Source: Bifidobacteriaceae bacterium
Lineage (GTDB): Bacteria; Actinomycetota; Actinomycetes; Actinomycetales; WQXJ01
Length of the DNA: 64,000 nt
Assembly: GCA_031281585.1 (NCBI GenBank)
Contig: JAITFE010000056.1
Span: forward strand, 24,566-88,565
Reading direction: 5' to 3'
Under the pieces are notes generated by a model. It made no database searches, was not told the DNA's origin, and was given only the letters and a program-made list of their open reading frames with translations. The translations under genes and the position numbers were made by a program. Each line of letters opens with the position of its first letter. Within the stretch, counting starts at the first letter, position 1. Positions 4,621 through 47,830 of this stretch are shown here, piece after piece.

Positions 4621-4717
4621 TTCCCCGTCGCGGGCGAGTTCAAGGCCCCACGCCGCCCGGACGGCGCTCCCGCGCCGGATGTGTCTTCACCCGAAGCATC
4701 TGGGAGGATAGGACACC

Positions 4718-35047: not shown

Positions 35048-37324
35048 CTAGGAATCCGAGACGCGCAGCGTGGCTGTGCCGTTGGCGGCTTCGACTGTGC
35101 GGTCGCCGGCCGCGAGCCGCCACGCGACGGACTTAGGCCCGGTCGCGACAAGGCTTTGACCGTCCCTGCAGACTGTGAATTGGGCTGCGGGGCCGCCCGT
35201 CGCGCTGGGGATGGGCAGCTCGCGGCTTTCGCCGTCTGGCAGGTCAAACACCATCAGAGTCACTCCTTCGGCCCAGTCGTAGTCGGGACGTTGGCCGCCG
35301 CGCCCAAGGGGCAGCACGGTTCCCGGACGCACCAGGACCGGCAGCGAGTCGTGGGGATGGACTTGGCGGACCCAACGCGGACCGGTCACCTTCGAGCCGT
35401 CCAGCAGCGAGGTCCAGACCCCCTCCGGCACGTACACGTCGACCTGGCCGTCCCCGCGCATCACGGGCGCAACCAGCACACTGTCCCCCAACATGTACTG
35501 GGTCTCGACGTGGCGGGCCGTCAGGTCGTCGGGGAACTCCAACAGCAGGTGTCGCAGCACCGGCAGACCGTCCGTGTGCGCTTCCTCGGCGATCCGCGCC
35601 AAGTACGGCATCAGCTTGTGCTTGAGTTCGGCGTAGCGCCGGGTTATCCCGACCGCCTCCTCGTCGAATGCCCAGGGCACCCTCACCGACGTCGATCCAT
35701 GGAGTCTTGAATGCGAGGACAGGAGCCCGAACGGCAGCCAGCGTTTGAACAGCGTGGGATCCGGGGTGCCTTCGAAGCCGCCGATGTCGTGGCTCCAGAA
35801 CCCGAAGCCGCACAGCCCCAGCGACAGTCCGCCGCGCAGGGTTTCAGCCATGGATGGGTAGCTGGAGTCGTTGTCGCCGCTCCAGTGCACCGGGAATTGC
35901 TGGCCGCCGGCGGTGGCGGACCGGGCGAACACCACCGCCTCGGCTTTCCCACGCACTTCCTCCAGCACCTTGAAGACCGTCCGGTTGTAGATCAACGCGT
36001 AGTAGTTGTGCATGCGCTCGGGGTCAGAGCCGTCGTGGTAGCGGATCGCCTCGACAGGGATCCTTTCGCCGAAATCCGTCTTGAAACAGTCGACCCCTTG
36101 CGCCAGCAACTGGCGCAGGTGGGCCGCGTACCATTCGGCTGCGGCGGGATTGGTGAAGTCCACCACTGCCATTCCTGCCTGCCAGCTGTCGCATTGCCAG
36201 ACGCTCCCGTCCGCCCGGCGAAGGAAGTAACCGTTTGCGCGGCCCTCCTCGAACAGGCGGGACCGTTGCGCTATGTAGGGGTTTATCCACACGCATATCT
36301 GCAAACCGCGCGCTTTCAGGCGCGCCAGCATTTCGGTGGGCTCCGGGAATTGCTCCGGGTCCCATTCGAAATCCGTCCAATGGAATTCGCGCATCCAGAA
36401 GCAGTCAAAGTGGAATACCGAGAGCGGCAGCCCGCGATCCGCCATGCCGTCCACGAAAGAGCACACCGTCGCCTCGTCGTAGGAGGTCGAGAAGGACGTG
36501 GACAGCCACAAGCCGAACGACCACGCGGGAACCCTGGCGGGACGACCCGTCAAGCCCGTGTAGCGCCGCAGCACGTCCTTCGGCGTGGGGCCCGCTACCA
36601 CGCAGTATTCGAGGGCTTCGCCCGCGACCGAGAACTGGACTCGTTCCACCATCTCCGACGCCACCTCGAAAGAAACACGGCCCGGATCGTTTACCAGCAC
36701 GCCGTAGCCCTTTGACGTCAGGTAGAAGGGCACGTTCTTGTAGGCCTGCTCGGAGCAGGTGCCGCCGTCTTCGTTCCAGATGTCCACGCTTTGGCCGTTC
36801 TTGACGACCGGGCCAAAGCGTTCGCCCAGGCCGTAGACCGATTCGCCGACGTCCAATGTGAGCTGTTCGTGCACGTACACAGCCCCGTCGTCCGCCGTGG
36901 CCAAACCGACCGAGTTGCCGACCGATGAGGTCAGCATGCGGCCCTGGTCCCAAAACTCGATCCGCCAGCCGTCGCCTCGGTGGACGCGGGCCTCAAGGCC
37001 GCCCGCCCGCAGACACGCCGTCGCCTCGCCTATTTCAATCAGGGGACGGTAACCGGGGGAAGCCGCCAACTCGAATCCGAGCGGGCTCACGGCTTTGCCC
37101 TCGTGGTGGGAGACGCGGACGCTGATCACACCCGGCGCCGGCGAACCCAAGGTGACTGTGATGAGGGGCCGGTTGAGCGTGTCGCCGCGCGACCGGATCC
37201 GCGCCGTCGGCGCGTAAACGGTCAGGGTGCCAGCCTCCGGATCGGCGCGGATGTCACGCACTTCCCGCGGGTGCAGCACGGAGAAGCCTTCGCGAACTTT
37301 CCAGTATCCGTCTGAGAATCTCAT
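35048..37324 (-). CDS. glycoside hydrolase family 31, alpha-xylosidase (YicI-like)
   Basis: The N-terminus MRFSDGYWKVREGF parallels YicI. It has the catalytic-region motifs KTDFGERIP and WSGDNDSSY. 758 aa with no signal peptide. Confidence 0.82.
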   Translation of the reverse strand: MRFSDGYWKVREGFSVLHPREVRDIRADPEAGTLTVYAPTARIRSRGDTLNRPLITVTLGSPAPGVISVRVSHHEGKAVSPLGFELAASPGYRPLIEIGEATACLRAGGLEARVHRGDGWRIEFWDQGRMLTSSVGNSVGLATADDGAVYVHEQLTLDVGESVYGLGERFGPVVKNGQSVDIWNEDGGTCSEQAYKNVPFYLTSKGYGVLVNDPGRVSFEVASEMVERVQFSVAGEALEYCVVAGPTPKDVLRRYTGLTGRPARVPAWSFGLWLSTSFSTSYDEATVCSFVDGMADRGLPLSVFHFDCFWMREFHWTDFEWDPEQFPEPTEMLARLKARGLQICVWINPYIAQRSRLFEEGRANGYFLRRADGSVWQCDSWQAGMAVVDFTNPAAAEWYAAHLRQLLAQGVDCFKTDFGERIPVEAIRYHDGSDPERMHNYYALIYNRTVFKVLEEVRGKAEAVVFARSATAGGQQFPVHWSGDNDSSYPSMAETLRGGLSLGLCGFGFWSHDIGGFEGTPDPTLFKRWLPFGLLSSHSRLHGSTSVRVPWAFDEEAVGITRRYAELKHKLMPYLARIAEEAHTDGLPVLRHLLLEFPDDLTARHVETQYMLGDSVLVAPVMRGDGQVDVYVPEGVWTSLLDGSKVTGPRWVRQVHPHDSLPVLVRPGTVLPLGRGGQRPDYDWAEGVTLMVFDLPDGESRELPIPSATGGPAAQFTVCRDGQSLVATGPKSVAWRLAAGDRTVEAANGTATLRVSDS

Positions 37325-37354
37325 TGTTTCGTCCTTGGGGCGGCTAGTTAGCGG

Positions 37355-38236
37355 CTATTTAATGGATCCGGCGGTGACGCCCCGCGTCAAAGTCCGCTGG
37401 AAGATCAGGAAGAAGATTAGCGTGGGGATCAACGACACCAACGCGCCCGCATTGAGGGTGGGCACGTCAAGCATCCTGTCGCCTTGCAGCGAGGAGAGCG
37501 TGATCGGCACGGTCTGCGAGTCCGGCGACGTGAGCATCACCAGCGGGATGAAAAACTCGTTCCACGTCCAAATGAAGAAGAAAATCATGAGGACTGACAA
37601 CGTGGGACGCACAATGGGGAACACCACCCGCCAAAGCTGTTGCCAGGAATTGGCGCCGTCCAGGGCCGCCGCCTCAAGCAACGAAGCCGGGAAGGTTCCC
37701 AGCACGGACGCCACCAGGTAGGTGCCGAAAGCGGACTGGATGACGGTGAAGATGATCACGATTGACCAACCGGAGTTGTTCAGCCCCACCTCTTGGGCGA
37801 TGTCGTAGAGCGGGTACAGCAGCACTTCTTGCGGCAGCATGTTGGCCAGCAGGAAGACGCCGATGAGCCATGACCGCCCCCGCACTCTTCCCACCCCGAG
37901 CGCGTAGGCGGACAGCAACGACAACGTGGTTCCGAACAAGGCGACCGCCGCCGAGGTCCAGACCGAGTTCCAGAGCTTCCGGGGGAAGTTGACACGGGTC
38001 CAGAAGTCCACCAGGCCTTTGGTGTAGACCTCGCTCGGCAGGGCCAGCGGGCCGTTGGTGGAGTATTCCGACGGGGCCTTGAAGGCGTTGACCACCATCA
38101 AGGCGAACGGCGCCAGCATGGCCAGGGCGATCAAGATGGCGGCGGCGAGCACAAACCACCTCAAAACGCCCCGATGGTGGCGGTCACGCGGACGCTTGGC
38201 GGGCGCTTGCCGGGAGGCGGAAGCGATCGTGGTCAT
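37355..38236 (-). CDS. carbohydrate ABC transporter permease (MalG-type)
   Basis: The ATG at 38236 overlaps the upstream stop (ATGA). EAA loop LEAAALDGANSWQQLWRVVFPIVRP, with six hydrophobic helices. Confidence 0.88.
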   Translation of the reverse strand: MTTIASASRQAPAKRPRDRHHRGVLRWFVLAAAILIALAMLAPFALMVVNAFKAPSEYSTNGPLALPSEVYTKGLVDFWTRVNFPRKLWNSVWTSAAVALFGTTLSLLSAYALGVGRVRGRSWLIGVFLLANMLPQEVLLYPLYDIAQEVGLNNSGWSIVIIFTVIQSAFGTYLVASVLGTFPASLLEAAALDGANSWQQLWRVVFPIVRPTLSVLMIFFFIWTWNEFFIPLVMLTSPDSQTVPITLSSLQGDRMLDVPTLNAGALVSLIPTLIFFLIFQRTLTRGVTAGSIK

Positions 38237-39192
38237 GCTGGAACCTCCATGTTCTTCCGCTCCGACCTGTTCTGAAGAACTTGGATCAGCCCCGCCACCA
38301 GGATGATGACGACCGTCAGCACGGTCGCCACAGCGGCGCCGTAGCCGACTTTGGACGTGTCGAAGAAGTTCAGGTATGAGTAGTAAGAGGGCACCAAGGT
38401 GGACTTTTCCGGACCGCCGCGTGTGAGCACATAGATTGGCGCGAACACCTTCAGCGCGGCGACCGTGCAGGTCAGTGTGACCACGAAAGTCTCGGGCCGG
38501 ATTTGCGCCACGGTGATCGCCCGGAAGCGCCGGAACCATCCGGCGCCGTCCAGTTCCGCCGCCTCATAAAGCTCTGGATCCACTCGTTGGAGCGCCGACA
38601 TGAAGATGACGGTCGGGTAGCCGATTTGGATCCAGACCAGCACCACCATCACGGCCGGCAAGGCGGTCTTGGGTTCTCCCAGCCAGTTTGGCGGCTGGGT
38701 CACGCCAAACGCGCGCAGCACCTCGTTCAGGGCCCCGGTTTGGGCGTTCAGGATCCAGTTCCAGACTATGCCGGCCACGGCGATCGGCATGATCTGCGGC
38801 AGATAGTAGGTGGCGCGCAGGAAACCGGCCATTCGCTGCCCAACGTGGGTGGCCACATAGTCGAACAACATCGCCGCCAGGATCAGGCCGATCAGAGTTG
38901 GCACCAGCACCATCGAGACGACCATCCACACCGAATTCCTGAACGACCCCCAAAACGCCGAATCGCCCAACAGGTCGGCGTAGTTGCCCAGCCCATTCCA
39001 GTGCATCGGCGCGAGACCGCCCTTCCACCGGTGCAAGCTGAACCACACGTTCATCCCAAACGGAATGACTATGACCGTCAACAGGCCGACAGCGCCGGGA
39101 ATCAAATAAAGCCAATAGACCCGCCGGCGGCGGCGAATCGATTTCCTGCCCACGCTTTCCGCCATGTCCGCTCCCCTCGTTCGCTCCGACAC
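38233..39192 (-). CDS. carbohydrate ABC transporter permease (MalF-type)
   Basis: EAA loop YEAAELDGAGWFRRFRAITVAQIRP. An alternative start is at 39165. Confidence 0.88.
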   Translation of the reverse strand: MSERTRGADMAESVGRKSIRRRRRVYWLYLIPGAVGLLTVIVIPFGMNVWFSLHRWKGGLAPMHWNGLGNYADLLGDSAFWGSFRNSVWMVVSMVLVPTLIGLILAAMLFDYVATHVGQRMAGFLRATYYLPQIMPIAVAGIVWNWILNAQTGALNEVLRAFGVTQPPNWLGEPKTALPAVMVVLVWIQIGYPTVIFMSALQRVDPELYEAAELDGAGWFRRFRAITVAQIRPETFVVTLTCTVAALKVFAPIYVLTRGGPEKSTLVPSYYSYLNFFDTSKVGYGAAVATVLTVVIILVAGLIQVLQNRSERKNMEVPA

Positions 39193-39195
39193 AGG

Positions 39196-39281
39196 CTGAG
39201 GCCCGCCGTGCGGCGGGCCTCAGCGATTTGCTCTCGTTTGGTCCGTGCCCCGACGGGCGGCCAGGCCGCCCCTCGGGGCAC
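39196..39281 (-). other. two GC-rich hairpins between the binding-protein and permease genes
   Basis: CTGAGGCCCGCC-GTGC-GGCGGGCCTCAG (39196..39223) and GTGCCCCGACGGGCGGCC-AGG-CCGCCCCTCGGGGCAC (39245..39281). Neither is followed by a U-tract. Confidence 0.55.
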
Positions 39282-39319
39282 GGGTTGGCTGTCCAACTAA
39301 CCGTGCTAAACGCCGGGCG

Positions 39320-40660
39320 TCAGCCGCCCAGGAGGTCGGCTTTACCGGCGTTGTAGAAGTCGCCCAGTTCCGCCAGCGCGGCGGCGGGCGTCTTGGAACC
39401 GTTCACTATCGACTGCCCGAACGCCACGATCTGGTCGTAGAAGCCGGCCACCGGCCAGTCGGGATAGTAGGCCAGGCCGTCAGCGGCGACAATCGAATCC
39501 CAGTTCTCTTGGAGCACCTTGGTGTTCGCGTCCGTGATGACGGACGAGTCGCCGGCCACGGGCAGGCCGCCCAGTTCGGCCATAACGTTCTGGGCCTTCT
39601 CGCCCAGGGCCGTGTCGATGAACTTGGCCGCAAGGTCGGCGTTCTTGGCGTTCGACGGGATCACCAGCAGGTTGCCGCTTGATCCGGGGGAGAAACTGGA
39701 CCCCGGGAATGGCACTTGCCCAAGCGTGAACTGCACCTCGGTGTTGAGGCGGCCGAACCACCAGGAGCCGGAGAACATCATTGGATAGGTGCCGGCGATG
39801 AATGCCGTCCCCATGTCCTCTGCGGTCAGGCCGGTGCAATCCTTCGCGATAAAGCCCTTTTCGACCCACTCGGCCAATAGCTCGGAGCCTTCAAGCAGCG
39901 GTCCCGCAGTGAAGTCCGCGTCGCCCTGGAACAACTGGTAGGAGTCGATGAACGAGCGATCGCCCTTTGACAGCACCAGCTCGTACCACAATTGTCCCAA
40001 AGCGTATTCAGCGCCAGATTCCGCCAGAGGAATGATTCCCTTGGCCACGAACGCCTCCATCGCCGATTCAAGCTCTGCGAAACTGGTCGGCACCGCGACT
40101 CCGTTGGCCTCGAACATGTCCTGGTTGAAGAACAGCGTGACATACTCGCCGTAGGTCGGCACACCGTACCAATTGCCGGACCCCATGAGGCCGTTCTCGT
40201 CGTAGCGGGCCGTGGTCTGCAGCGACGGTGAGAGCTTTGAGTCCCACCCATATTGCGAGGCGTAGGCGCTCAAGTCGGTCAACAGACCCTGCGAGGCCAA
40301 CTGGCCCGCTGTTCCGTTGCCCTTGTTATACTCCATAATGTCCGGCACGTCGTTGCCCGTGAGCACAATCTTCGCGTTCTTTTGGAGCTGCTCGAACGTT
40401 TGACCTTCGACCTTGATTTTGACGCCCGGATTATTGGCTTCGAACTCCTCGATCGCGGCGTTCCAAGACTTGGTCATGGCCGCGTCTTCACCCTCGTAAT
40501 GCCAAAAGATCAGCGTGGTCTCGGTGCCGCCTGAGGCGCCGCCTCCGTTGCCGCCGTTGTTTTTGTCAGTGTCCTTCTCGTCGCCGCCGCAGGCGGTTAG
40601 GGCAAGCATACCGGCGGCGACCATTGCGACCGCCATTCTTGCGCGTGTTGATTGTCTCAT
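39320..40660 (-). CDS. sugar ABC transporter substrate-binding lipoprotein (family 1)
   Basis: Signal peptide with the lipobox LALTACGG, a Gly/Asn-rich linker, and a 446 aa solute-binding fold pattern. Confidence 0.88.
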   Translation of the reverse strand: MRQSTRARMAVAMVAAGMLALTACGGDEKDTDKNNGGNGGGASGGTETTLIFWHYEGEDAAMTKSWNAAIEEFEANNPGVKIKVEGQTFEQLQKNAKIVLTGNDVPDIMEYNKGNGTAGQLASQGLLTDLSAYASQYGWDSKLSPSLQTTARYDENGLMGSGNWYGVPTYGEYVTLFFNQDMFEANGVAVPTSFAELESAMEAFVAKGIIPLAESGAEYALGQLWYELVLSKGDRSFIDSYQLFQGDADFTAGPLLEGSELLAEWVEKGFIAKDCTGLTAEDMGTAFIAGTYPMMFSGSWWFGRLNTEVQFTLGQVPFPGSSFSPGSSGNLLVIPSNAKNADLAAKFIDTALGEKAQNVMAELGGLPVAGDSSVITDANTKVLQENWDSIVAADGLAYYPDWPVAGFYDQIVAFGQSIVNGSKTPAAALAELGDFYNAGKADLLGG

Positions 40661-40811: not shown

Positions 40812-43800
40812 TCAGTCGACCTCACCAATCCGCTTCCGGCGGCGCGAGACGGCTGCGGCAAACCCTCCGACCAGGATCAGCAGGGCCGCCAGACCGGTGG
40901 TTGGCCAAATCGCGGTGCCGCCGGTGATTGGCAGGGTTTCCTCGCCGTCGGCTGACCCGCTGGGGCTGGGCGTTCTGGTTCCGGGAGGCCCGGCAGGCCC
41001 AGACGGACCAGCAGGTCCGGGGGGCCCAGGCGGGCCGGACGGGCCGGGTTCGCCGGGTTCTCCAGGCTGACCGGGTTCGCCGGGTTCTCCAGGCTGACCA
41101 GGTTCGCCGGGTTCCCCAGGCCCGCCCGGTTCACCGGGCTCGCCGGGTGAGCCGGGTTCTCCGGGCTCACCCGGTTCTCCAGGCTCACCCGGTTCGCCGG
41201 GTTCCCCGTGCTCGCCAGCTTCGATGGTCACGGTGAACACGCTGGTGCCGGTCTGGCCCAGGTCGTCGACCCATGTGACGGTGAACTGGTAGGTCCCGGG
41301 GGCGGCCGTTCCGGCCGCGAACTCGACGGTGCCGTCAAGGCCGACTGTGACCGTCGCGCCGGCCGGAACGCCTGAGGCCGTGCCGGCCACAATGCTCCCA
41401 GTCGTGGCGACATTGACTTGGAAAGCGTGTTCGCCGCCCTCTGACACGGTGGCGGAGCCCCCGCCCGCTGCGGGCGGAGCCTGCACCGCGACCACGTAGG
41501 TGACCGGGACCGACTGCCCAAGCTGGTCGGTGAACGTCACCACGAAGGTGTACGTGCCGGACGGCACGCCATCGGCGTCAAACGTCACAACGCCGCTCGG
41601 GTCAACGTTCACGGTTCCAGCCGCAGGCGGCGAGGTCACCGCGCCGGTCGCGGAGCCGACACCAGCCGGCGCCGGGAAGGCGTGCGTGCCGTCTTCGGCG
41701 ATCAGTGCTTGGCCGCCCTGCGCGGCGGGCATCGCCTGGACGGTGACGACGTGCGTCACCGCCACGGTCTTGCCCAGGTTGTCGTAGTAGGTGACCGGAA
41801 TCTCGTAGACGCCCGGCTCCGATGACGCGAACCGGACTCTGCCGTCAGACAACACCACGGCATCGGCCGCGCTGACGTCGCCATCAGCGGAGGTGATCGT
41901 GCCGATTTGAGTCGAGAGCAGGTCGATCGAGGCGGTGGAGATCGCCGGATCGGCCACCGGTTCGGCGTCCAACACCACGTACTTGAGCGTGCCGTTGCCG
42001 TCGGACTCGCCGATGGTGACCTGCTTCGCGGTCGCCACCGGATCGCCCTGCTGGATCCCGTGGATGGTGAACCAGTTGATCCCCAGGTCAAGCCAGCCGG
42101 CGACAGCCCCGTAGGTGCTGGAGATATCCGTGTCCGGGATGGCCGAGGACACCTCGAAGACGAAGTAGAGATCGTGCACGCCGGCCAGAGGCTGCAACTC
42201 GAACGTCACATCCTGCCAGTGGTAGACGGGGTTCTGGTAGTCGGCGGCGGACGCCAAATCCAAGGTGCCCGCAACCTCGACCTCGCCCAGCTTGGTCCCC
42301 GTCACCGGATCGTCCGCCATGACGGTGATCTTGGCCGGCTCGGTCGACACCTTCACGTACCGCAACGTCATTTCCGTCGCCTGCGGGTCGTTCATGTAGA
42401 CCCGGTTGTAGACGGCGTAGTCACCGTTGCGGATGCGGTTGAGCTGCAAGCCGACGTCATCACCGTGGACGTTGTCAGCGCGCAGGTTGGCCACGGTGAC
42501 GCCGTCCACGTTGCCTGCCGAGTCGAACAACTCGGCCTCGTAACGCAGCGGATACGCGGTGCGGATCCCCTGGCCCTGGATGACAATCCGAGAGGTGTAG
42601 GACAGGCCGTTGCTGGTGGTCGCAGTCACATACACCTCGCCGTCGCCGTTGCCCGTGGCGCGCAGCGTCGCGTTGTAGGCCCGGTTGTTGTTCCCGCTGG
42701 TCTGGCCCTCGACGAAGCCGGCCCCCTCGCTGCCCGGAACGATCTCAGCGAGGTTGGTCGGCTGGCCGTTCTTGTCGGCCACGGTGAAGGTGACCGGCCG
42801 CGGGGTCGAGGTGGTGACTAACGGGTAGGTGACCGCGCTCAGCAGCAACTCGCCCTTGTACTGGTGGATGGCCCCGAAGGTGTCGAACTGGTTCGGCCCC
42901 CAGGAGATGTCGCTGGGCCGGGAATCCCAACCACTGCGGATGATGACCGCTTCCGCATTGGTGCCCGCCGCGACGGTCTGGTTGCTCAGCGCCACGTCCA
43001 GCGAAGCCGACGCCTGGCCAGCGGTAGTCGGGTAGGTGACCACCGCCCGCACAAAGCCGTCGGCCGTGCCGGCCGCAGTCAGCTGTCCGTTCGCGTTGAT
43101 AGTGGCCAGAGTGGTCGGGTTGCCCGACAAATCCGTCACCGTCCACGTCGCCGCGCCGGTCACAACCCTGGGTGCCGCGATCTTGGCCTCAAGCACCAGG
43201 TTACCCGACCGTTGTTCGATCTTCGCCGGAACCTCGACGTGATACCGCGTCAGCGAGGTCGCAATGTTGGTGTTGTAGTGGTTGGGGGTGATCGACACGT
43301 CGGAGTTCTGTGCCGAGGCGAAGGACGCGCCAAGACGCAACCAGGCGACAGACACGCCGCTCGACGGGCTGACCAGGTAGAGGTCGGCCGTGCCGGACGG
43401 AGCCGCCGCCAGGGTGGCGCCCACGCTCACGAAGGTCTGAACGTGACCGGTGGGCGGGATGTTGATGGTGCCCATCGGAGTGCCGCCGGAGACGGCGTCC
43501 GGGCCGCCCCGCCAGACCTCCAAAGCCACCGGCGCGGCGTTCGAGTTGGAGGCCCGAACTGCGAAGGCCGTCTGGGATGCGAAGTTGACGTCCGCGTACT
43601 TGACCCAGCCGCCAGTCGCGGCGCGGTAGGTGATTCCGTAGGAGTCGGTCTCATGCACCGAACTCGGGATCACGTCCGCCTGCGTGCCGGTGCTCGTCAC
43701 CGATGTGAACGAGTAGTCGTCGAAGTTGAACGCGGACTTGGCGGTGCTGAGGTCTCGCGGTTGCAGCCCAGAGCCGGTCACCGTCAGGTTGGCGGAGGCC

Positions 43801-46502
43801 AGCTGGTCGGCTGTCGCCGAGGACCGGGCCGCCGCGATGGTGTAGGTGCCCGGCTCGAGGAAATACCGCTCGCCGGCCGCATCCCAGATCGCCATGTCGC
43901 GCAGGGACACGTTGATTGTGACCTGTTGGGTCTGGCCCGCGCCCACGTTGATCCGCTTGTAGCCGACCAGCGTCCGGTTGGGGTACTCGACCCGCGAACT
44001 CGCGGCGCCGTTGAACGATGAGTAGATCTGCACCACCTCGTCGCTGGCCCTGGTTCCCGTGTTGGACACGGTCACGGTGACGGGCACGGTGGCGTTGAGG
44101 TTGGTGTTTGCGACCGTCGCCGGGTTCAGCGTCACGCCCGAATAGGCGAAGGTCGTGTAGGTCAGGCCGTAACCGAACGCGTAGATCGGCGTGCCGTCGT
44201 AGTACTGGTAAGTGCGGTTGCCCTTGATGATGTCGTAATCGGTGATCGGCGGCAGATCGCCCAGGCCCGCATACCAGGTTTGGTTCAGCCGGCCGGCCGG
44301 GGCGTAGTCGCCGAACAGCACGTCCGCCACGGCGGTGCCGAGTTCTTGGCCCGCATGGCTGGTGTAGACAATGCCCTTGACGTTCGGGTTTGCCTGGACG
44401 GCGCTGACGTCGAACGGGTAGGAGCCCACAATCACGACCACAGTGTTCGGGTTGGCCGCCGCGACGGCGTCGATCAACTCGACTTGTTCGGGGGCCAACT
44501 GGATGTCGGGAGCGGTCGCCTGCCGGTCGTAGGTCTCGCGCGAGGTCAAGTGCGGCTGATCGCCAACCGCGACGACGGCGACTCCAGCGCCTGTGGCCTT
44601 CGCGACGGCATCGTCAACGCCGTCCTGGACCGTGATCAACTCGAACTGCCGGTTTGCGGAGGTGTTGTTGCCGTTGTGGAGCACGTTGTAGGGCGAATTC
44701 TGGTTCACGTAAACCGCAGGCTGCGCTGTGGTGGCCGTCACGCCCGTGCCCTTGGTGAAGCGCAGGGAGACAACGTTGCCGGACCGTTGCACAATGCCCA
44801 GGTTCTGGTCGGTGCTCCACTGCTGGCTGGCCCGGTTGGCTCCTTCGTAGCCTGGTGGGTCGGCGTTGGCGACCAGCGTGTTGCCAGAACCGCGGGCGGC
44901 CAGGTACCGGTCGGTGTCGACCGAACGGAGCAACATGTTGTTGTAGCCGTAGTCATACAGGTAGAACTGGGCCTTCGGGTCGGCCGATGACGTGCCGGTG
45001 CCGGTCAGCGGGTCGGCGCCCGTCGCCCCGGTCACCAGGAATTTGCCGGTCACGGCCGTGGTCGCGGAGGTGCCGGTGACCTGGAAGGCCACCGTGTCAA
45101 CGCCCCGGCTGAACGCGAGCGAGCCGGAGCCCGCCAGCTTCTGGGCCATCTGGTCCTTGATCAACGTGGTGTAGGGGTAAGTGCCCGCGTAGAAGTCCGT
45201 GGAGTTCTCATCTCCCAACGGGCCGACCAAGGCGACGTTGGCGGACTTGGACAAAGGCAGGATCCCACCCTCGTTCTTCAGCAAGACCACCTGTTCCTTC
45301 GCCGCCTGGGCGGCGACCGCCCGGTTCTCTGCGGTGTCCAGCGCGTTCAGCTTGTTGTAGGCCTTGTACGGGTTGCCCGCGTCCACATCCAGGTCGCCGG
45401 CGTGGAGGCGGACCAGCAAGATGCCGTAGATGGCCTCGTCGATGTCCGCCTCTGTGATCATGCCGCGGGCCAGCGCCTCGTAGAACCAGCGCCGGGTGGT
45501 AGGCGTGTCCGTGTCGGACGGCGTCATGACGGCGATGCCGTTCTTGAGCGAGTCGGCCATCGACGCGGCCTGCCCCAGGGTGCTGGCGGGGTAATAGAGG
45601 TTCGAGCCGGACAGGTTCCCGGGGGATCCAGCGTCGGTCACGGCGAAGAAGGACCCGCCGCCCGTGCCGTACCCGCCGTCAAGCCACTCGCCGTACAGTT
45701 CGCTCATGACTTCCGGCATCACCATGGTCGGCTTGCCGTTGACCAGGTTGTAGGCGGTCATGATGCCGTTGACGTTGCCGTCCGCAATGCCGCGACTGAA
45801 GGCCCGGAGGTAGTACTCGTAGAGGTTCCGGGGGCCGGCGTTGGCCGAATACCCGGTGCGGTTCGACTCCTGGCCGTAGGCGGCGAAGTGCTTCAAGGTC
45901 GGTATGGCCTGGTAGTAGCCGTCTTCGCCGCCTTGGATGCCCGCAGCCATTGAGGAGGACATGGTGCCGGTCAGATAGGCGTCCTCGCCCATCGATTCCG
46001 AAGCACGTCCGGCCCTTGGATCACGGGCAAGGTCGACCACTGGGGCCCAAATGTCGATCCCGTTGAAGCGCGCGTCCACGGAGTTGTAAGCCCTCGCCTC
46101 CGCGCCCACCACGTCGCCAATCTTCTCGGCCAGTTCGGGGTTCCAGGTCATCGCTATGCCGGTGTTCTGCGGGAAAACCGTCGCATAGCCCAACCAGGAC
46201 AGTCCGTGCAGGCCCTCCGTGCCGGTGCGGAACTGGGGCACGCCGAGGCGGATGATAGCTGTGCTGAACTGGTGGAGCAGACCCACCTTCTCGTCCAGGG
46301 TGAGGCGCGAGATCAAGTCCTTCACGCGTGCGTCGTCGCTGAGCGAGGTGTCTTGGAACGGGTATGCCACGCCGCTCGCGCTGGCGGGCGCGGCCATAGT
46401 CTGAACGTCCTGGGTGGTAACCAACCCAAAAGCAACCACCGCCGCAGCCACCGAAGCCGCGACAGTTCGTTTGGCGGCACTTAGCCGACCGGTTTGGTGC
46501 AT
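40812..46502 (-). CDS. cell-wall-anchored multidomain glycoside hydrolase family 3 with CBM-like and Ig-like modules, a collagen-like repeat and an LPXTG signal
   Basis: GH3 N-terminal motifs LTLDEKVGLL and KHFAAYG, a GH3 C-terminal domain and an FnIII-like domain (GLTYTTF...VVQIYS). There are two CBM6/35-like segments and three ~85 aa Ig-like repeats. These are followed by 26 G-X-Y triplets (40980..41216), then LPITG, a TM helix and RRRKR. The start is ambiguous: the ATG at 46502 abuts AAGGAG, and the ATG at 46547 is an alternative. Confidence 0.85.
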   Translation of the reverse strand: MHQTGRLSAAKRTVAASVAAAVVAFGLVTTQDVQTMAAPASASGVAYPFQDTSLSDDARVKDLISRLTLDEKVGLLHQFSTAIIRLGVPQFRTGTEGLHGLSWLGYATVFPQNTGIAMTWNPELAEKIGDVVGAEARAYNSVDARFNGIDIWAPVVDLARDPRAGRASESMGEDAYLTGTMSSSMAAGIQGGEDGYYQAIPTLKHFAAYGQESNRTGYSANAGPRNLYEYYLRAFSRGIADGNVNGIMTAYNLVNGKPTMVMPEVMSELYGEWLDGGYGTGGGSFFAVTDAGSPGNLSGSNLYYPASTLGQAASMADSLKNGIAVMTPSDTDTPTTRRWFYEALARGMITEADIDEAIYGILLVRLHAGDLDVDAGNPYKAYNKLNALDTAENRAVAAQAAKEQVVLLKNEGGILPLSKSANVALVGPLGDENSTDFYAGTYPYTTLIKDQMAQKLAGSGSLAFSRGVDTVAFQVTGTSATTAVTGKFLVTGATGADPLTGTGTSSADPKAQFYLYDYGYNNMLLRSVDTDRYLAARGSGNTLVANADPPGYEGANRASQQWSTDQNLGIVQRSGNVVSLRFTKGTGVTATTAQPAVYVNQNSPYNVLHNGNNTSANRQFELITVQDGVDDAVAKATGAGVAVVAVGDQPHLTSRETYDRQATAPDIQLAPEQVELIDAVAAANPNTVVVIVGSYPFDVSAVQANPNVKGIVYTSHAGQELGTAVADVLFGDYAPAGRLNQTWYAGLGDLPPITDYDIIKGNRTYQYYDGTPIYAFGYGLTYTTFAYSGVTLNPATVANTNLNATVPVTVTVSNTGTRASDEVVQIYSSFNGAASSRVEYPNRTLVGYKRINVGAGQTQQVTINVSLRDMAIWDAAGERYFLEPGTYTIAAARSSATADQLASANLTVTGSGLQPRDLSTAKSAFNFDDYSFTSVTSTGTQADVIPSSVHETDSYGITYRAATGGWVKYADVNFASQTAFAVRASNSNAAPVALEVWRGGPDAVSGGTPMGTINIPPTGHVQTFVSVGATLAAAPSGTADLYLVSPSSGVSVAWLRLGASFASAQNSDVSITPNHYNTNIATSLTRYHVEVPAKIEQRSGNLVLEAKIAAPRVVTGAATWTVTDLSGNPTTLATINANGQLTAAGTADGFVRAVVTYPTTAGQASASLDVALSNQTVAAGTNAEAVIIRSGWDSRPSDISWGPNQFDTFGAIHQYKGELLLSAVTYPLVTTSTPRPVTFTVADKNGQPTNLAEIVPGSEGAGFVEGQTSGNNNRAYNATLRATGNGDGEVYVTATTSNGLSYTSRIVIQGQGIRTAYPLRYEAELFDSAGNVDGVTVANLRADNVHGDDVGLQLNRIRNGDYAVYNRVYMNDPQATEMTLRYVKVSTEPAKITVMADDPVTGTKLGEVEVAGTLDLASAADYQNPVYHWQDVTFELQPLAGVHDLYFVFEVSSAIPDTDISSTYGAVAGWLDLGINWFTIHGIQQGDPVATAKQVTIGESDGNGTLKYVVLDAEPVADPAISTASIDLLSTQIGTITSADGDVSAADAVVLSDGRVRFASSEPGVYEIPVTYYDNLGKTVAVTHVVTVQAMPAAQGGQALIAEDGTHAFPAPAGVGSATGAVTSPPAAGTVNVDPSGVVTFDADGVPSGTYTFVVTFTDQLGQSVPVTYVVAVQAPPAAGGGSATVSEGGEHAFQVNVATTGSIVAGTASGVPAGATVTVGLDGTVEFAAGTAAPGTYQFTVTWVDDLGQTGTSVFTVTIEAGEHGEPGEPGEPGEPGEPGEPGSPGEPGEPGGPGEPGEPGQPGEPGEPGQPGEPGEPGPSGPPGPPGPAGPSGPAGPPGTRTPSPSGSADGEETLPITGGTAIWPTTGLAALLILVGGFAAAVSRRRKRIGEVD

Positions 46503-46592
46503 CTCCTTTGATTCCCTTCGGTAGCGGCAGCTTCGCCGTTGCGGCATCACTGCCGATGAATTTGAGCGAGCCAACATCCCCCGCTGTGAGAC

Positions 46593-46606
46593 TCGAAGCG
46601 CTTCGA
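46593..46606. promoter_or_regulatory. candidate LacI-family operator
   Basis: TCGAAGCGCTTCGA is a perfect 14-bp palindrome in the divergent GH3/lacI control region. It has the same length and central AGCGCT as the CebR-type box TGGGAGCGCTCCCA. Confidence 0.5.
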
Positions 46607-46795
46607 ATACTTGCACACGGGGTCTCGCGCGTCAATAGCTGAAGCCAAAATGTGACCCTGTCAAGCGCGGGCCACCTTGTTGATCAGGGGCTTCGGCACG
46701 GGCTCCATTCCGGTGGAGCGCCCCTCCGGGCCGCTCCTCGTTAGTTCGCCGACGCGCGGCGTAAGCTGCCTTCAGCCGAATCGAAAGGAAGGCCC

Positions 46796-47830
46796 GTGGC
46801 GAATCCCCGCATGATCGACGTCGCGCGAAGGGCAAGAGTCGCTCCCAGCACAGTTTCTTACGCTCTCAGCGGCCAGCGAACCATTTCGCCGTCCACCCGC
46901 CAGCGCGTGCTCCAGGCCATCGCGGAACTCGGGTACAAGCCCAACGAGCTGGCGCGCAGCCTGGCTAGTCGGCGGTCCCGGATTGTGGCGCTGCTGCTCC
47001 CCGCATCCCAGCGCGGAATCGGCTTCACCGAGATGGAGTTCGCGACCGGCGCGGCGCAGGCCGCCAGGGAACTGGACCACCAACTGGTCCTGTCGGTGAC
47101 AAACCAGAACACCGCGGATCAGGTGGCGGAGCTGAACGAGGGCGGGCTGATCGCGGGGGCCATCCTGATGGAGGTCCGCCTCAACGACGAGCGCATCGCC
47201 TTGCTCCGGGACGCGGGCATCCCGTTCTCAATGATCGGGCGGCCGCAGGACCCAGACGGGATCGACTGCGCCGACATCGACTTCGACCAGACCGCCCGAG
47301 ACGCGGTCAAGCACCTGGTCGAACTGGGGCACCGCAGAATCGCCTTTCTCAACCACTCGGCCTCGGACGTCTCGGCCTCCTACGGTCCGTCCGTGCGGGC
47401 GGCGGCTGGCTTCCGGCGAGCCGCCGCCGAATTCTCGGTCGGGTACCTGGAGCGGCCGTGCGGCGAGGACACCGAGTCCGGGGAGGCCGCGTTCCACGAG
47501 TTGATCGCGGCCGATCCGGAGTTGACCGGGATAGCCATCATGAACGACCGGGCGACCGCCGGCGTTCTCAGCGCCATAGAGCAAATCGGCGCGAACGTGC
47601 CCCGTGACTTCTCAGTCGTGTCGATCGCCTCCTCGACCCGCGTCACGGAGATGTTCCGGCCCCGGTTGACAACCCTTGAACCCCAGGCGATCGAACTGGG
47701 CCGCATGGGCGCCCGCCTGCTGATCGCGGCCCTTCAGGCGCCGCCGGGAGTGGAGCGCGAGCCGACGCTGGCCCTGCTGCCCTGCCGCCTTGTGATCGGG
47801 GGCAGTTCGGGTCCGGCGCCCGTCAACTGA
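46796..47830 (+). CDS. LacI family transcriptional regulator
   Basis: N-terminal HTH MIDVARRARVAPSTVSYALSG, a periplasmic-binding-protein-like effector domain, and a GTG start preceded by GAAAGGAAGG. Confidence 0.9.
   Translation: MANPRMIDVARRARVAPSTVSYALSGQRTISPSTRQRVLQAIAELGYKPNELARSLASRRSRIVALLLPASQRGIGFTEMEFATGAAQAARELDHQLVLSVTNQNTADQVAELNEGGLIAGAILMEVRLNDERIALLRDAGIPFSMIGRPQDPDGIDCADIDFDQTARDAVKHLVELGHRRIAFLNHSASDVSASYGPSVRAAAGFRRAAAEFSVGYLERPCGEDTESGEAAFHELIAADPELTGIAIMNDRATAGVLSAIEQIGANVPRDFSVVSIASSTRVTEMFRPRLTTLEPQAIELGRMGARLLIAALQAPPGVEREPTLALLPCRLVIGGSSGPAPVN

What the first reader, a model, noticed from the sequence alone, without database searches (positions are those of the whole stretch)
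40812..46502. Giant wall-anchored GH3 enzyme carried on a bacterial collagen-like stalk
The ~1900 aa protein combines the following, in order:
- a signal peptide
- a GH3 catalytic pair with an inserted module, and an FnIII-like domain
- two CBM6/35-like segments
- three ~85 aa Ig-like repeats, each ending ..LG(K/Q)..V..V..V(Q/E)A
- 26 uninterrupted G-X-Y triplets (40980..41216, mostly GEP with GPP/GPA/GPS at the end)
- the sorting signal LPITG, a TM helix and RRRKR
Collagen-like G-X-Y tracts in bacteria (Scl, BclA types) form trimeric stalks. Placed directly before the sortase signal, this one would project, and possibly trimerise, a large glycosidase from the wall. I do not know of a described GH3 with this architecture. 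The domain assignments beyond GH3, G-X-Y and LPXTG come from pattern recognition only.
Basis: partly seen in the sequence, partly recalled or inferred. Interest (0 to 1): 0.6.

Follow-up and report, generated by a model that had tools for sequence, protein, structure and literature searches.

The report
Wall-anchored GH3 glycosidase with collagen-like spacer
A real, intact gene for a very large sugar-cleaving enzyme that an uncultured bifidobacterium-like bacterium pins to its cell wall through an unusual 27-triplet collagen-like (Gly-Glu-Pro) tract; the architecture is rare but looks like a variant of the ordinary proline-rich wall spacer, and whether it forms a true collagen triple helix is untested.

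Summary
One open frame on the minus strand (40812..46502, 1896 aa) encodes, in order:
- a signal peptide
- GH3 N- and C-domains, with a 158-aa insertion that I model as a beta-trefoil
- an Fn3-like domain
- CBM6, two unassigned beta modules, and a second CBM6
- three Ig-like repeats
- 27 uninterrupted G-X-Y triplets
- LPITG, a hydrophobic helix and RRRKR

A same-genus genome carries a syntenic orthologue (83% identical) with 34 triplets. A third congener has an ordinary Pro/Thr/Glu linker at the same position.

About 30 other sortase substrates in this genome, by my reading of a noisy scan, carry Pro-rich low-complexity linkers before the anchor, several with the same scrambled synonymous codons. 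(GEP)n tracts also occur as linkers in unrelated metagenomic surface proteins, including a GH10 xylanase with an LAVTG anchor.

I read the tract mainly as a stiff, polyanionic spacer of about 23 nm that crosses the wall. Trimerisation through a real triple helix is possible (about 0.3). In favour: Gly is never replaced in 61 triplets across the two orthologues, and both end in a GP-Y block. Against: net charge is -14, there is no prolyl hydroxylase, and no trimerisation domain is recognisable.

Verdict: a new variant of a known kind, of moderate interest.

The parts
46374..46502 (-). N-terminal signal peptide (aa 1-~43: basic n-region, hydrophobic AASVAAAVVAFGLV, A-x-A type sites). The start codon is uncertain (46502 or 46547).
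   Evidence: By eye from the translation. AF2 pLDDT is below 50 for aa 1-43. The N-terminus and the ATG are conserved in the G005 orthologue.
45429..46247 (-). GH3 N-terminal (TIM-barrel) catalytic domain, aa 86-358. It contains invariant D157/R160/R166, K204-H205 and D290, the candidate nucleophile in the motif T-D-A-G.
   Evidence: Pfam PF00933, E 8.5e-30. Invariant columns in the 23-sequence alignment. D290 aligns with SDAG of the GH3 structure 21ji. GH3 fold by AF2 and Foldseek.
44157..45290 (-). GH3 C-terminal alpha/beta-sandwich domain, aa 405-782, interrupted by the insertion. Invariant E656 (SRETYDR) is the candidate acid/base.
   Evidence: Pfam PF01915, E 2.4e-44, model positions 1-200 spread over 378 residues. 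E656 is invariant. Its role as acid/base is inference.
44625..45098 (-). Beta-trefoil module (aa 469-626) inserted in the GH3 C-domain. It has no Pfam model and is conserved across the whole homologue family.
   Evidence: No Pfam hit. AF2 of aa 460-632 gives pLDDT 89.4. Foldseek finds beta-trefoil lectins and CBMs (HA33, the trefoil module of 1,3Gal43A, CBM92, ThreeFoil, fascin) with TM-score about 0.8 on the target. Conserved in alignments A2 and A3.
43818..44039 (-). Fn3-like domain of GH3 enzymes, aa 822-895.
   Evidence: Pfam PF14310, E 4.6e-17.
43335..43646 (-). First CBM6 carbohydrate-binding module (best stretch aa 953-1056).
   Evidence: Pfam PF03422, E 1.1e-19, two stretches.
42573..43250 (-). 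About 225 aa of beta-rich modules without a significant family match (aa 1085-1310). Conserved in the homologues.
   Evidence: Only sub-threshold Pfam hits (Glyco_hydro2_C5 E 0.009, Big_1 E 0.58). No PDB sequence match. Conserved in the family consensus.
42147..42455 (-). Second CBM6 module (aa 1350-1452). The conserved family core ends at ...GWLDLGINWF (aa 1478).
   Evidence: Pfam PF03422, E 2.3e-8 on the fragment. The shortest homologues end here.
41217..42065 (-). Three Ig-like repeats (aa 1480-1590, 1591-1675, 1676-1762).
   Evidence: Big_13 (33.9 bits), Big_9 (30.6) and He_PIG (27.4) are all above their cut-offs. Repeats of the same type occur many times in giant LPXTG proteins of congeners.
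41046..41216 (-). Acidic block of the collagen-like tract: 19 triplets (GEH, 14 x GEP, GSP, GGP, 2 x GQP), aa 1763-1819.
   Evidence: Codon table. Pfam Collagen, E 1.5e-13. Synonymous codons are scrambled (10 distinct 9-mers for 14 GEP units) and GC3 is 0.56 against 0.87 in the rest of the gene.
40974..41045 (-). Neutral block of the tract: GPS GPP GPP GPA GPS GPA GPP GTR, aa 1820-1843, in phase with the acidic block.
   Evidence: The orthologue has GPI x3, GPT, GPA x4, GGA, GGT at the same place.
40935..40973 (-). 13-residue link TPSPSGSADGEET between the tract and the sorting motif.
   Evidence: Translation, coordinates.
40815..40934 (-). Sortase sorting signal: LPITG (40920..40934), a hydrophobic segment (aa 1862-1885) and the basic tail SRRRKRIGEVD. 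The stop codon is at 40812..40814.
   Evidence: The tripartite signal is visible in the sequence. Pfam Gram_pos_anchor gives 15.7 bits (below the cut-off of 20) and NCBIfam Microco_LAVTG 20.5 bits (cut-off 27). Two sortase genes are in the genome. My reading of a noisy regex scan finds about 30 proteins with similar tails.
46796..47830 (+). Divergent LacI-family regulator gene.
   Evidence: Pfam LacI plus Peripla_BP_3. Same position in the G005 locus.
35048..40660 (-). Downstream co-directional genes: ABC solute-binding protein (39320..40660), two permeases (38233..39192 and 37355..38539) and a GH31 glycosidase without an evident signal peptide (35048..37324).
   Evidence: Pfam SBP_bac_1, BPD_transp_1 x2 and Glyco_hydro_31 (E 2.3e-95).

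Best explanation
The gene encodes an intact secreted exo-glycosidase of about 188 kDa. It belongs to a conserved actinobacterial/clostridial GH3 family whose core is GH3 with a beta-trefoil insertion, Fn3-like, CBM6, two beta modules and a second CBM6.

Sortase attaches it covalently to peptidoglycan through LPITG. Between the enzyme and the anchor lie three Ig-like domains and an 81-residue G-X-Y tract.

My reading is that the tract is this lineage's version of the proline-rich wall-spanning spacer found in most sortase substrates. It would be an extended (polyproline-II-like), polyanionic, protease-poor rod of about 23 nm. It threads the peptidoglycan and, with the roughly 12 nm of Ig domains, holds the catalytic and sugar-binding modules at or beyond the wall surface. 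Obligatory trimerisation is not required.

The enzyme would trim beta-linked xylose or glucose, or possibly isoprimeverose units, from hemicellulose oligosaccharides bound by the CBM6 and trefoil modules. The adjacent LacI-controlled ABC importer takes up the products, and the cytoplasmic GH31 finishes them.

Shown: gene integrity, domain order, conservation, the sorting signal and the genomic context. Inferred: substrate, spacer conformation, the position of the tract in the wall and the monomeric state.
For: Architecture.

Same position, different filler:
- The G007/P0002 orthologue (55-71% identical) has ...VDSPPTEEPTEAPTEEPTGAPSEEPSG...LPVTG where this protein has G-X-Y.
- Other family members end in SLH, dockerin or Big_2/FIVAR modules, or in nothing. 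The tail is therefore an exchangeable anchoring cassette.

Genome habit:
- About 30 LPXTG-type proteins of this genome, picked by eye from a noisy scan, carry low-complexity P/T/E/D/G linkers before the anchor (PTDQ, GGPT, GTDPP, PTESGS).
- Several of these (PTDQ, GGPT, TQPPT) show the same synonymous scrambling, 0.43-0.62 differences per codon, against 0.57 in the GEP units.

Geometry: only 13 residues separate the tract from LPITG. At 0.29-0.31 nm per residue, 81 + 13 residues span 27-29 nm.

No helper for a triple helix:
- Net charge is -14 with no Lys and a single terminal Arg.
- No 2OG-Fe(II) prolyl-hydroxylase-type gene is in the 95%-complete genome.
- The flanking domain is an ordinary Ig-like fold.

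(GEP)n is a generic linker elsewhere:
- 111 metagenomic stretches match the pattern. The tract lies between domains of a subtilase, FIVAR and Ig proteins.
- It also lies just before sortase anchors, for example in an SdrD_B/SpaA adhesin, in Ig-like proteins, and in a GH10 + CBM4_9 + CBM9 xylanase with LAVTG.
- 30 of 76 such tracts are flanked in phase by non-Gly xEP units.
- HMMER also matches the tract-plus-anchor to phase-broken PGEP/PSTPGEP/NPGNPG pre-anchor linkers.

Operon context. It is syntenic in G005.
Against: - Gly is never replaced in 27 triplets here or in 34 in the orthologue, while X and Y vary.
- Both orthologues switch from GEP to a GP-Y block without losing phase. GPP, GPA and GPI are, from what I recall of host-guest peptide work, triple-helix-favouring triplets.
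- The Pfam Collagen score is well above threshold.
- Scl1/Scl2 show that LPXTG-anchored triple helices exist.
- The PTE linker of G007 is only about half as long, so the tracts are not simply interchangeable in length.
- GC3 of the tract (0.56) is lower than that of the other linkers (0.67-1.00, mostly 0.70-0.82). I cannot explain this.
- No biophysical or multimer-modelling evidence was obtainable here.
Confidence: 0.55

Rival explanations
1. The G-X-Y tract folds into a true collagen triple helix. Three chains are zipped together and each is anchored by sortase. This gives a collectin- or C1q-like bouquet with three GH3 heads, six CBM6 and three trefoils on one rigid stalk, which raises avidity for insoluble hemicellulose.
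For: - 27 and 34 uninterrupted triplets with invariant Gly in two species.
- A conserved terminal GP-Y block that keeps phase.
- Pfam Collagen at 50.7 bits.
- Local similarity to the Scl1/Scl2 models.
- Length variation between species, as in BclA and Scl (own knowledge).
- Scl proteins prove that the triple helix and the LPXTG anchor are compatible (PMC8968730).
Against: - Net charge is -14 per chain with no basic partners. All-acidic collagen peptides are, as far as I recall, poor homotrimer formers at neutral pH.
- No hydroxylase was found.
- No recognisable trimerisation or nucleation domain next to the tract.
- A congener does without the tract.
- GEP tracts elsewhere tolerate non-Gly residues.
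- The tract abuts the anchor, so it would have to fold inside the wall.
Confidence: 0.3
2. The tract has a role beyond spacing. Candidates are a polyanionic cation (Ca2+/Mg2+) binding or charge-repulsion brush that keeps the enzyme from collapsing onto the wall, or an adhesive collagen-mimic element.
For: 15 Glu in 57 residues and the conserved acidic character in the orthologue. The acidic context of many metagenomic GEP tracts.
Against: No specific evidence. This reading is compatible with, and hard to separate from, the spacer reading. The G007 orthologue's linker is also acidic but not G-X-Y.
Confidence: 0.1
3. Assembly or annotation artefact: the repeat is mis-assembled, or the long ORF is a fusion or pseudogene.
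For: The genome is a 169-contig draft.
Against: - One uninterrupted frame.
- An 82.7%-identical full-length orthologue with the same order and synteny in an independent assembly.
- The longest exact DNA repeat in the tract is 29 nt, so it can be assembled with usual k-mers.
- Catalytic residues are invariant.
Confidence: 0.03

Closest known systems
Sortase- or membrane-anchored multidomain glycosidases of Gram-positive gut bacteria (Bifidobacterium bifidum AfcA, AfcB, BbgIII, AgnB; Lacticaseibacillus casei BnaG with LPXTG; PMC6109692)
   Same: A very large secreted enzyme (1500-2000 aa) with a catalytic domain, CBMs and bacterial Ig-like domains, fixed to the cell surface at its C-terminus. 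Products are taken up by an adjacent transporter.
   Different: Those enzymes are not reported to carry a G-X-Y tract. Here 27 collagen-type triplets lie directly before LPITG, the catalytic family is GH3, and the GH3 domain holds a beta-trefoil insertion.
Streptococcal collagen-like proteins Scl1/Scl2 (NCBIfam NF038330/NF038329) and other bacterial collagen-like proteins (PclA, BclA, Lcl; review PMC8968730)
   Same: An uninterrupted G-X-Y region without hydroxyproline, followed by an LPXTG wall anchor. Tract length differs between lineages.
   Different: - No N-terminal trimerising V domain.
- Scores are far below the Scl model cut-offs (34 bits against 325 and 400).
- The tract is almost purely acidic (GEP) rather than mixed-charge.
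- The passenger is a 1760-aa enzyme, not an adhesin head.
- Triple-helix formation is untested.
Streptococcal phage hyaluronate lyase HylP with a (Gly-X-Y)10 motif (PMC4585773); Klebsiella pullulanase with collagen-like repeats (recalled from a 1988 report, not verified here)
   Same: Polysaccharide-degrading enzymes that carry a short collagen-like tract.
   Different: There the tract is N-terminal and short (about 10 triplets), sits in an intrinsically trimeric phage fibre protein or a lipoprotein, and is not next to a sortase signal.
GH3 enzymes with a domain inserted in the C-terminal sandwich (Kluyveromyces marxianus BglI 3abz; Aspergillus oryzae isoprimeverose-producing IpeA 7eap/5yot), and the isoprimeverose-producing enzyme 21ji
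   Same: The three-domain GH3 fold plus Fn3-like domain, with an extra module in the C-domain. The neighbouring GH31 gene fits a xyloglucan-oligosaccharide route.
   Different: - The inserted module here is a beta-trefoil, not the PA14 domain I recall for those enzymes.
- Sequence identity in the structural alignments is only about 23%.
- Beta-xylosidases score as well as these enzymes, so the specificity is open.
Metagenomic GH10 xylanase L115 (contig Ga0182735_1008136): CBM4_9 x2 + GH10 + CBM9 + G-X-Y x11 (mostly GEP) + about 100 aa + LAVTG
   Same: A plant-polysaccharide hydrolase with CBMs, a GEP tract and a sortase-type anchor.
   Different: A different catalytic family. The tract is shorter (11 triplets) and is separated from the anchor by a further domain. 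The protein is unnamed and uncharacterised.

Membership tests
Glycoside hydrolase family 3 | GH3 N-terminal barrel and C-terminal sandwich domains | tested here: met
   PF00933 at 104.7 bits (cut-off 27) and PF01915 at 152.1 bits (cut-off 31). AF2 model with pTM 0.86 matches GH3 structures at Foldseek E about 1e-49.
Glycoside hydrolase family 3 | Conserved catalytic nucleophile Asp and substrate-binding K-H and Arg residues | tested here: met
   D290 (T-D-A-G) aligns with S-D-A-G of 21ji. D290, K204-H205, R160, R166 and E656 are invariant in 23 homologues. The roles are assigned by analogy.
Glycoside hydrolase family 3 | Exo-beta-glycosidase activity and its specificity | not testable with these tools
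   NCBIfam equivalog models for xylosidase, glucosidase and arabinosidase all score far below their cut-offs (best 406.8 bits against 1250).
Bacterial collagen-like proteins (Pfam PF01391; Scl/BclA type) | Long uninterrupted Gly-X-Y repeat | tested here: met
   27 triplets, aa 1763-1843. PF01391 at 50.7 bits (cut-off 27.2).
Bacterial collagen-like proteins (Pfam PF01391; Scl/BclA type) | Formation of a trimeric triple helix | not testable with these tools
   Only monomer structure prediction was available, and there is no biophysics.
Bacterial collagen-like proteins (Pfam PF01391; Scl/BclA type) | Adjacent trimerisation or nucleation domain (Scl V domain, BclA C1q-like domain) | tested here: not met
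   The N-terminal neighbour is a Big_13/Big_9-type Ig-like repeat. On the C-terminal side only 13 residues precede LPITG. An unrecognised nucleator cannot be excluded.
Scl1/Scl2 adhesins (NCBIfam NF038330, NF038329) | Whole-protein score above the curated cut-off | tested here: not met
   34 bits against cut-offs of 400 and 325. The match covers only the G-X-Y and anchor part.
Sortase substrates (LPXTG proteins) | C-terminal LPXTG, hydrophobic segment and basic tail | tested here: met
   LPITG, 24 mostly hydrophobic residues and SRRRKR are visible in the sequence. The HMM scores are sub-threshold (PF00746 at 15.7 against 20; NF058582 at 20.5 against 27).
Sortase substrates (LPXTG proteins) | Sortase encoded in the genome, and an N-terminal signal peptide | tested here: met
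   Two PF04203 hits in the genome (98.4 and 53.9 bits). The signal peptide was judged by eye only.
CBM6 | Pfam CBM_6 match above the cut-off | tested here: met
   71.4 bits for the whole protein, in two stretches. The second module alone scores 34.8 bits against a cut-off of 28.9. CBM6 versus CBM35 was not resolved.
Isoprimeverose-producing oligoxyloglucan hydrolases (GH3 subgroup) | Close similarity to characterised members, and a partner alpha-xylosidase | tested here: inconclusive
   21ji is the best PDB sequence hit (E 4.4e-65), but beta-xylosidases follow at 1e-61 and structural-alignment identity is about 23%. A GH31 gene lies in the operon.

The most novel reading that the evidence does not exclude
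The polyanionic (GEP)n-(GPY)n tract is a genuine hydroxyproline-free collagen triple helix, nucleated at or in the cell wall. It would assemble three 190-kDa GH3 chains into a collectin-like enzyme bouquet. GEP tracts in front of sortase anchors, seen here also on a GH10 xylanase and on adhesins, would then be an unrecognised general trimerising stalk for Gram-positive surface enzymes.
Probability: 0.25. Interest if true: 0.6.

Novelty: new variant of a known kind. Interest (0 to 1): 0.35.

Why it matters
- It shows that the exchangeable anchoring tail of one conserved hemicellulase family can be a collagen-type tract. Other members of the family use SLH, dockerin or Big_2/FIVAR tails, or a Pro/Thr/Glu linker before LPXTG.
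- It offers a natural pair for testing what such tracts do: the G000/G005 orthologues have the tract and the G007 orthologue does not.
- If (GEP)n forms a triple helix without hydroxyproline or basic residues, that would interest collagen-mimetic materials research and would explain how some Gram-positives cluster enzymes on their wall.
- If it does not, it warns that Pfam "Collagen" hits in sortase substrates are often only phase-regular Pro/Gly/acid spacers.
- The family-wide beta-trefoil insertion in a GH3 domain has no Pfam model and is a small annotation gain.

Tried and rejected
- The genome search with the full 1896-aa protein failed twice. It worked with the 429-aa tail.
- A metagenome scan with peptide patterns from the tail found no relative.
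- I first took codon scrambling and low GC3 in the tract as evidence for selection on a collagen helix. I dropped this after the control: other low-complexity LPXTG linkers of the same genome are scrambled too.
- The second Pfam Collagen hit in the genome (contig C140) is a low-complexity tail of an unrelated protein that shows no secretion or anchoring signal, not a surface collagen.
- Short GQP, GSP or GPT runs in relatives are mostly 8-14 triplets, often in off-frame or unrelated ORFs.
- (GEP)8 as a DNA pattern is rare in the class, found in 1 of 401 genomes. The window's own tract has at most six perfect GEP units in a row and so does not match that pattern.
- Literature searches for GH plus collagen-like plus LPXTG, for pullulanase collagen-like repeats and for GEP repeats returned nothing relevant.
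- The origin of the sister MAG name (Nc350_bin167) could not be traced.
- Trimer modelling was not possible because the structure tool predicts single chains only.
Full report
**1. Is it there?**

Yes. The minus strand carries one uninterrupted frame, 40812..46616. The ATG at 46502 is conserved in the orthologue and gives 1896 aa. The AGGAG box directly abuts that ATG, so the ATG 45 nt upstream is an alternative start. This does not affect the architecture.

Pfam gives the following:
- Glyco_hydro_3, aa 86-358
- Glyco_hydro_3_C, aa 405-782, with the complete 200-position model spread over 378 residues
- Fn3-like, aa 822-895
- CBM_6 twice
- Collagen, 50.7 bits against a cut-off of 27.2
- a weak Gram_pos_anchor match

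NCBIfam places the N-terminal part nearest to Xyl3A-type xylosidases, far below the equivalog cut-off. It matches the tail only locally to Scl1/Scl2. The three ~85-aa repeats hit Big_13, Big_9 and He_PIG above threshold.

The G-X-Y run is 27 triplets (aa 1763-1843, window 41216..40974): GEH, 14 GEP, GSP, GGP, 2 GQP, then GPS GPP GPP GPA GPS GPA GPP GTR. Thirteen residues later come LPITG, a 24-residue hydrophobic segment and SRRRKR.

**2. What the enzyme part is.**

An AF2 model of aa 1-950, built on a 23-sequence alignment, has pTM 0.86. It superposes on GH3 structures at Foldseek E about 1e-49, with only about 23% identity to any of them. In the sequence search, the isoprimeverose-producing enzyme 21ji, fungal beta-xylosidases and BglX-type glucosidases score almost equally. 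Specificity therefore cannot be called.

D290 (TDAG, aligned to SDAG of 21ji), K204-H205, R160/R166 and E656 are invariant in the family. The enzyme therefore looks active.

The insertion (aa 469-626) has no Pfam match. Modelled alone it gives pLDDT 89 and is a beta-trefoil, probably a third sugar-binding module. About 225 aa between the two CBM6 remain unassigned.

**3. Context.**

Downstream on the same strand lie an ABC solute-binding protein, two permeases and a GH31 glycosidase. A LacI gene lies divergently upstream. The same order is found in the congener. This is a standard Gram-positive "outside trimming, import, inside finishing" locus. A xyloglucan-oligosaccharide or xylo-oligosaccharide substrate is plausible but inferred.

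**4. Relatives.**

The roughly 1478-aa core, ending ...GWLDLGINWF, is 60-71% identical in proteins from Jiangella, Lentzea, Pseudonocardiales and many metagenomes. After the core, the homologues carry one of several tails:
- nothing
- Big_2/FIVAR modules
- SLH domains
- dockerins
- a TM/sortase-like tail
- a Pro/Thr/Glu linker followed by LPVTG, in the closest database hit P0002

None of the 36 best hits has a G-X-Y run.

In the 30 relatives searched (10 of them same-genus), only two genomes hold the orthologue:
- G005 is a record titled "MAG: Bifidobacteriaceae bacterium". Its orthologue is 82.7% identical over the full length. It has three Ig repeats, then (GEP)23, GPI x3, GPT, GPA x4, GGA, GGT, GVS (34 triplets), then LPFTG.
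- G007 (= P0002) has two Ig repeats and the PTE linker.

So the tract is conserved in kind, variable in length, and replaceable by an ordinary linker.

**5. Is the tract a collagen helix or a spacer?**

Points for a helix:
- No Gly substitution in 61 triplets across two species.
- Variation is confined to X and Y.
- A terminal GP-Y block is kept in phase in both orthologues.

Points for a plain spacer:

(a) Position. The tract ends 13 residues before the residue that sortase links to peptidoglycan. At 0.29-0.31 nm per residue, 94 residues span about 27-29 nm, roughly a Gram-positive wall thickness (the wall thickness is from general knowledge).

(b) Genome habit. My own reading of a noisy regex scan (115 ORFs matched, most of them false) picks out about 30 LPXTG-type proteins in this genome. 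They carry P/T/E/D/G-rich periodic linkers before the anchor. Two sortases are present.

(c) The codon control. GEP units are encoded by many different 9-mers: 10 for 14 units here and 13 for 23 units in G005. GC3 is 0.56 in the tract against 0.87 in the rest of the gene. But the PTDQ, GGPT and TQPPT linkers of other proteins show the same scrambling, so scrambling says nothing specific about collagen.

(d) Chemistry. Net charge is -14 and there are no basic partners. No prolyl-hydroxylase-type gene is present. No trimerisation domain is recognisable.

(e) The wider class.
- A DNA pattern for (GEP)8 finds 111 metagenomic stretches.
- The tract serves as an inter-domain linker in a subtilase and in FIVAR and Ig proteins.
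- It serves as a pre-anchor segment in an SdrD_B/SpaA adhesin, in Ig-like proteins and in a GH10 + CBM4_9 + CBM9 xylanase with LAVTG.
- 30 of 76 such tracts continue in phase with non-Gly xEP units, and four resume after one.
- A full HMMER scan of 1.8 billion representatives with aa 1300-1896 matches the tract-plus-anchor to phase-broken PGEP, PSTPGEP or NPGNPG linkers before LPXTG-type motifs. It finds no further GH3 with an uninterrupted tract.
- (GEP)8 is rare in the class, in 1 of 401 genomes.

Together these make a monomeric, extended, acidic wall-spanning spacer the better-supported reading (0.55). A real triple helix remains a live alternative (0.3).

**6. Comparison with known systems.**

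As a kind, this is a sortase-anchored multidomain glycosidase like those of Bifidobacterium bifidum and L. casei (PMC6109692). Its pre-anchor segment formally matches bacterial collagen-like proteins of the Scl type. The review PMC8968730 lists no enzyme-linked examples.

A collagen-like motif on a polysaccharide-degrading enzyme has a precedent in phage hyaluronate lyase HylP (PMC4585773). From memory, Klebsiella pullulanase is another. I could not verify that paper here.

The protein fails the Scl model cut-offs and lacks a nucleation domain, so I do not file it as an Scl-type adhesin.

Earlier unchecked notes of this scan report G-X-Y tracts between Ig-like domains and an anchor in giant GH3s of another genome. 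They also report collagen-like stalks on SGNH and GH12-like surface proteins. These notes suggest the design recurs, but they are leads only.

**7. Verdict.**

This is a new variant of a known kind, with interest about 0.35. The decisive experiments are CD and oligomer-state measurements of the Ig3-tract fragment, multimer modelling, and long-read confirmation of the repeat.

Noticed in passing
window 44625-45098 (aa 469-626 of the GH3): The whole homologue family carries a beta-trefoil module inserted in the GH3 C-terminal domain. It has no Pfam model. It sits where, as I recall, some fungal GH3 enzymes carry a PA14 domain.
   Followed up: yes
window 46593-46606; L013 about 4630-4650: The 14-bp palindrome TCGAAGCGCTTCGA between lacI and the GH3 gene is conserved letter for letter upstream of the G005 orthologue. 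This fits a LacI-family operator.
   Followed up: partly
L003 (G000 contig C140:10928-11083): A large protein with no evident secretion or anchoring signal ends in a G-X-Y-phased low-complexity tail (DGVPGS repeats). It gives a weak Pfam Collagen hit. Its domains were not searched, and it is unrelated to surface collagens.
   Followed up: partly
L115 (metagenome contig Ga0182735_1008136), 3-4310 (+): A GH10 xylanase with two CBM4_9 and a CBM9, followed by 11 G-X-Y triplets (mostly GEP), a further domain of about 100 aa and an LAVTG anchor. It is a second hydrolase family with a GEP tract near a sortase signal.
   Followed up: partly
window 42573-43250 (aa 1085-1310): Two conserved beta-rich modules between the CBM6 domains have no significant Pfam or PDB sequence match.
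   Followed up: partly
genome G000, contigs C20, C76, C107, C159 and others: Low-complexity pre-anchor linkers of several LPXTG proteins (PTDQ, GGPT, TQPPT) keep identical peptide units while scrambling synonymous codons, with GC3 lowered to 0.70-0.82; the GTDPP linker on C76 does not (GC3 1.00, 0.08 differences per codon). This may reflect selection against slippage.
   Followed up: partly
window 46494-46502: The AGGAG box directly abuts the conserved ATG with zero spacing, so the true start of the GH3 gene is uncertain. In the window there is an ATG 45 nt upstream; the orthologue has TTG at that position.
   Followed up: partly
P0069, P0070 and L008-L011 (congeners G001, G002, G016): The Ig-like repeat type of the GH3 tail occurs in long arrays (up to 14 matched stretches) in giant LPXTG proteins with reading frames of about 1,200 to 5,200 aa in related genomes. 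It is therefore a shared stalk module of this lineage.
   Followed up: no
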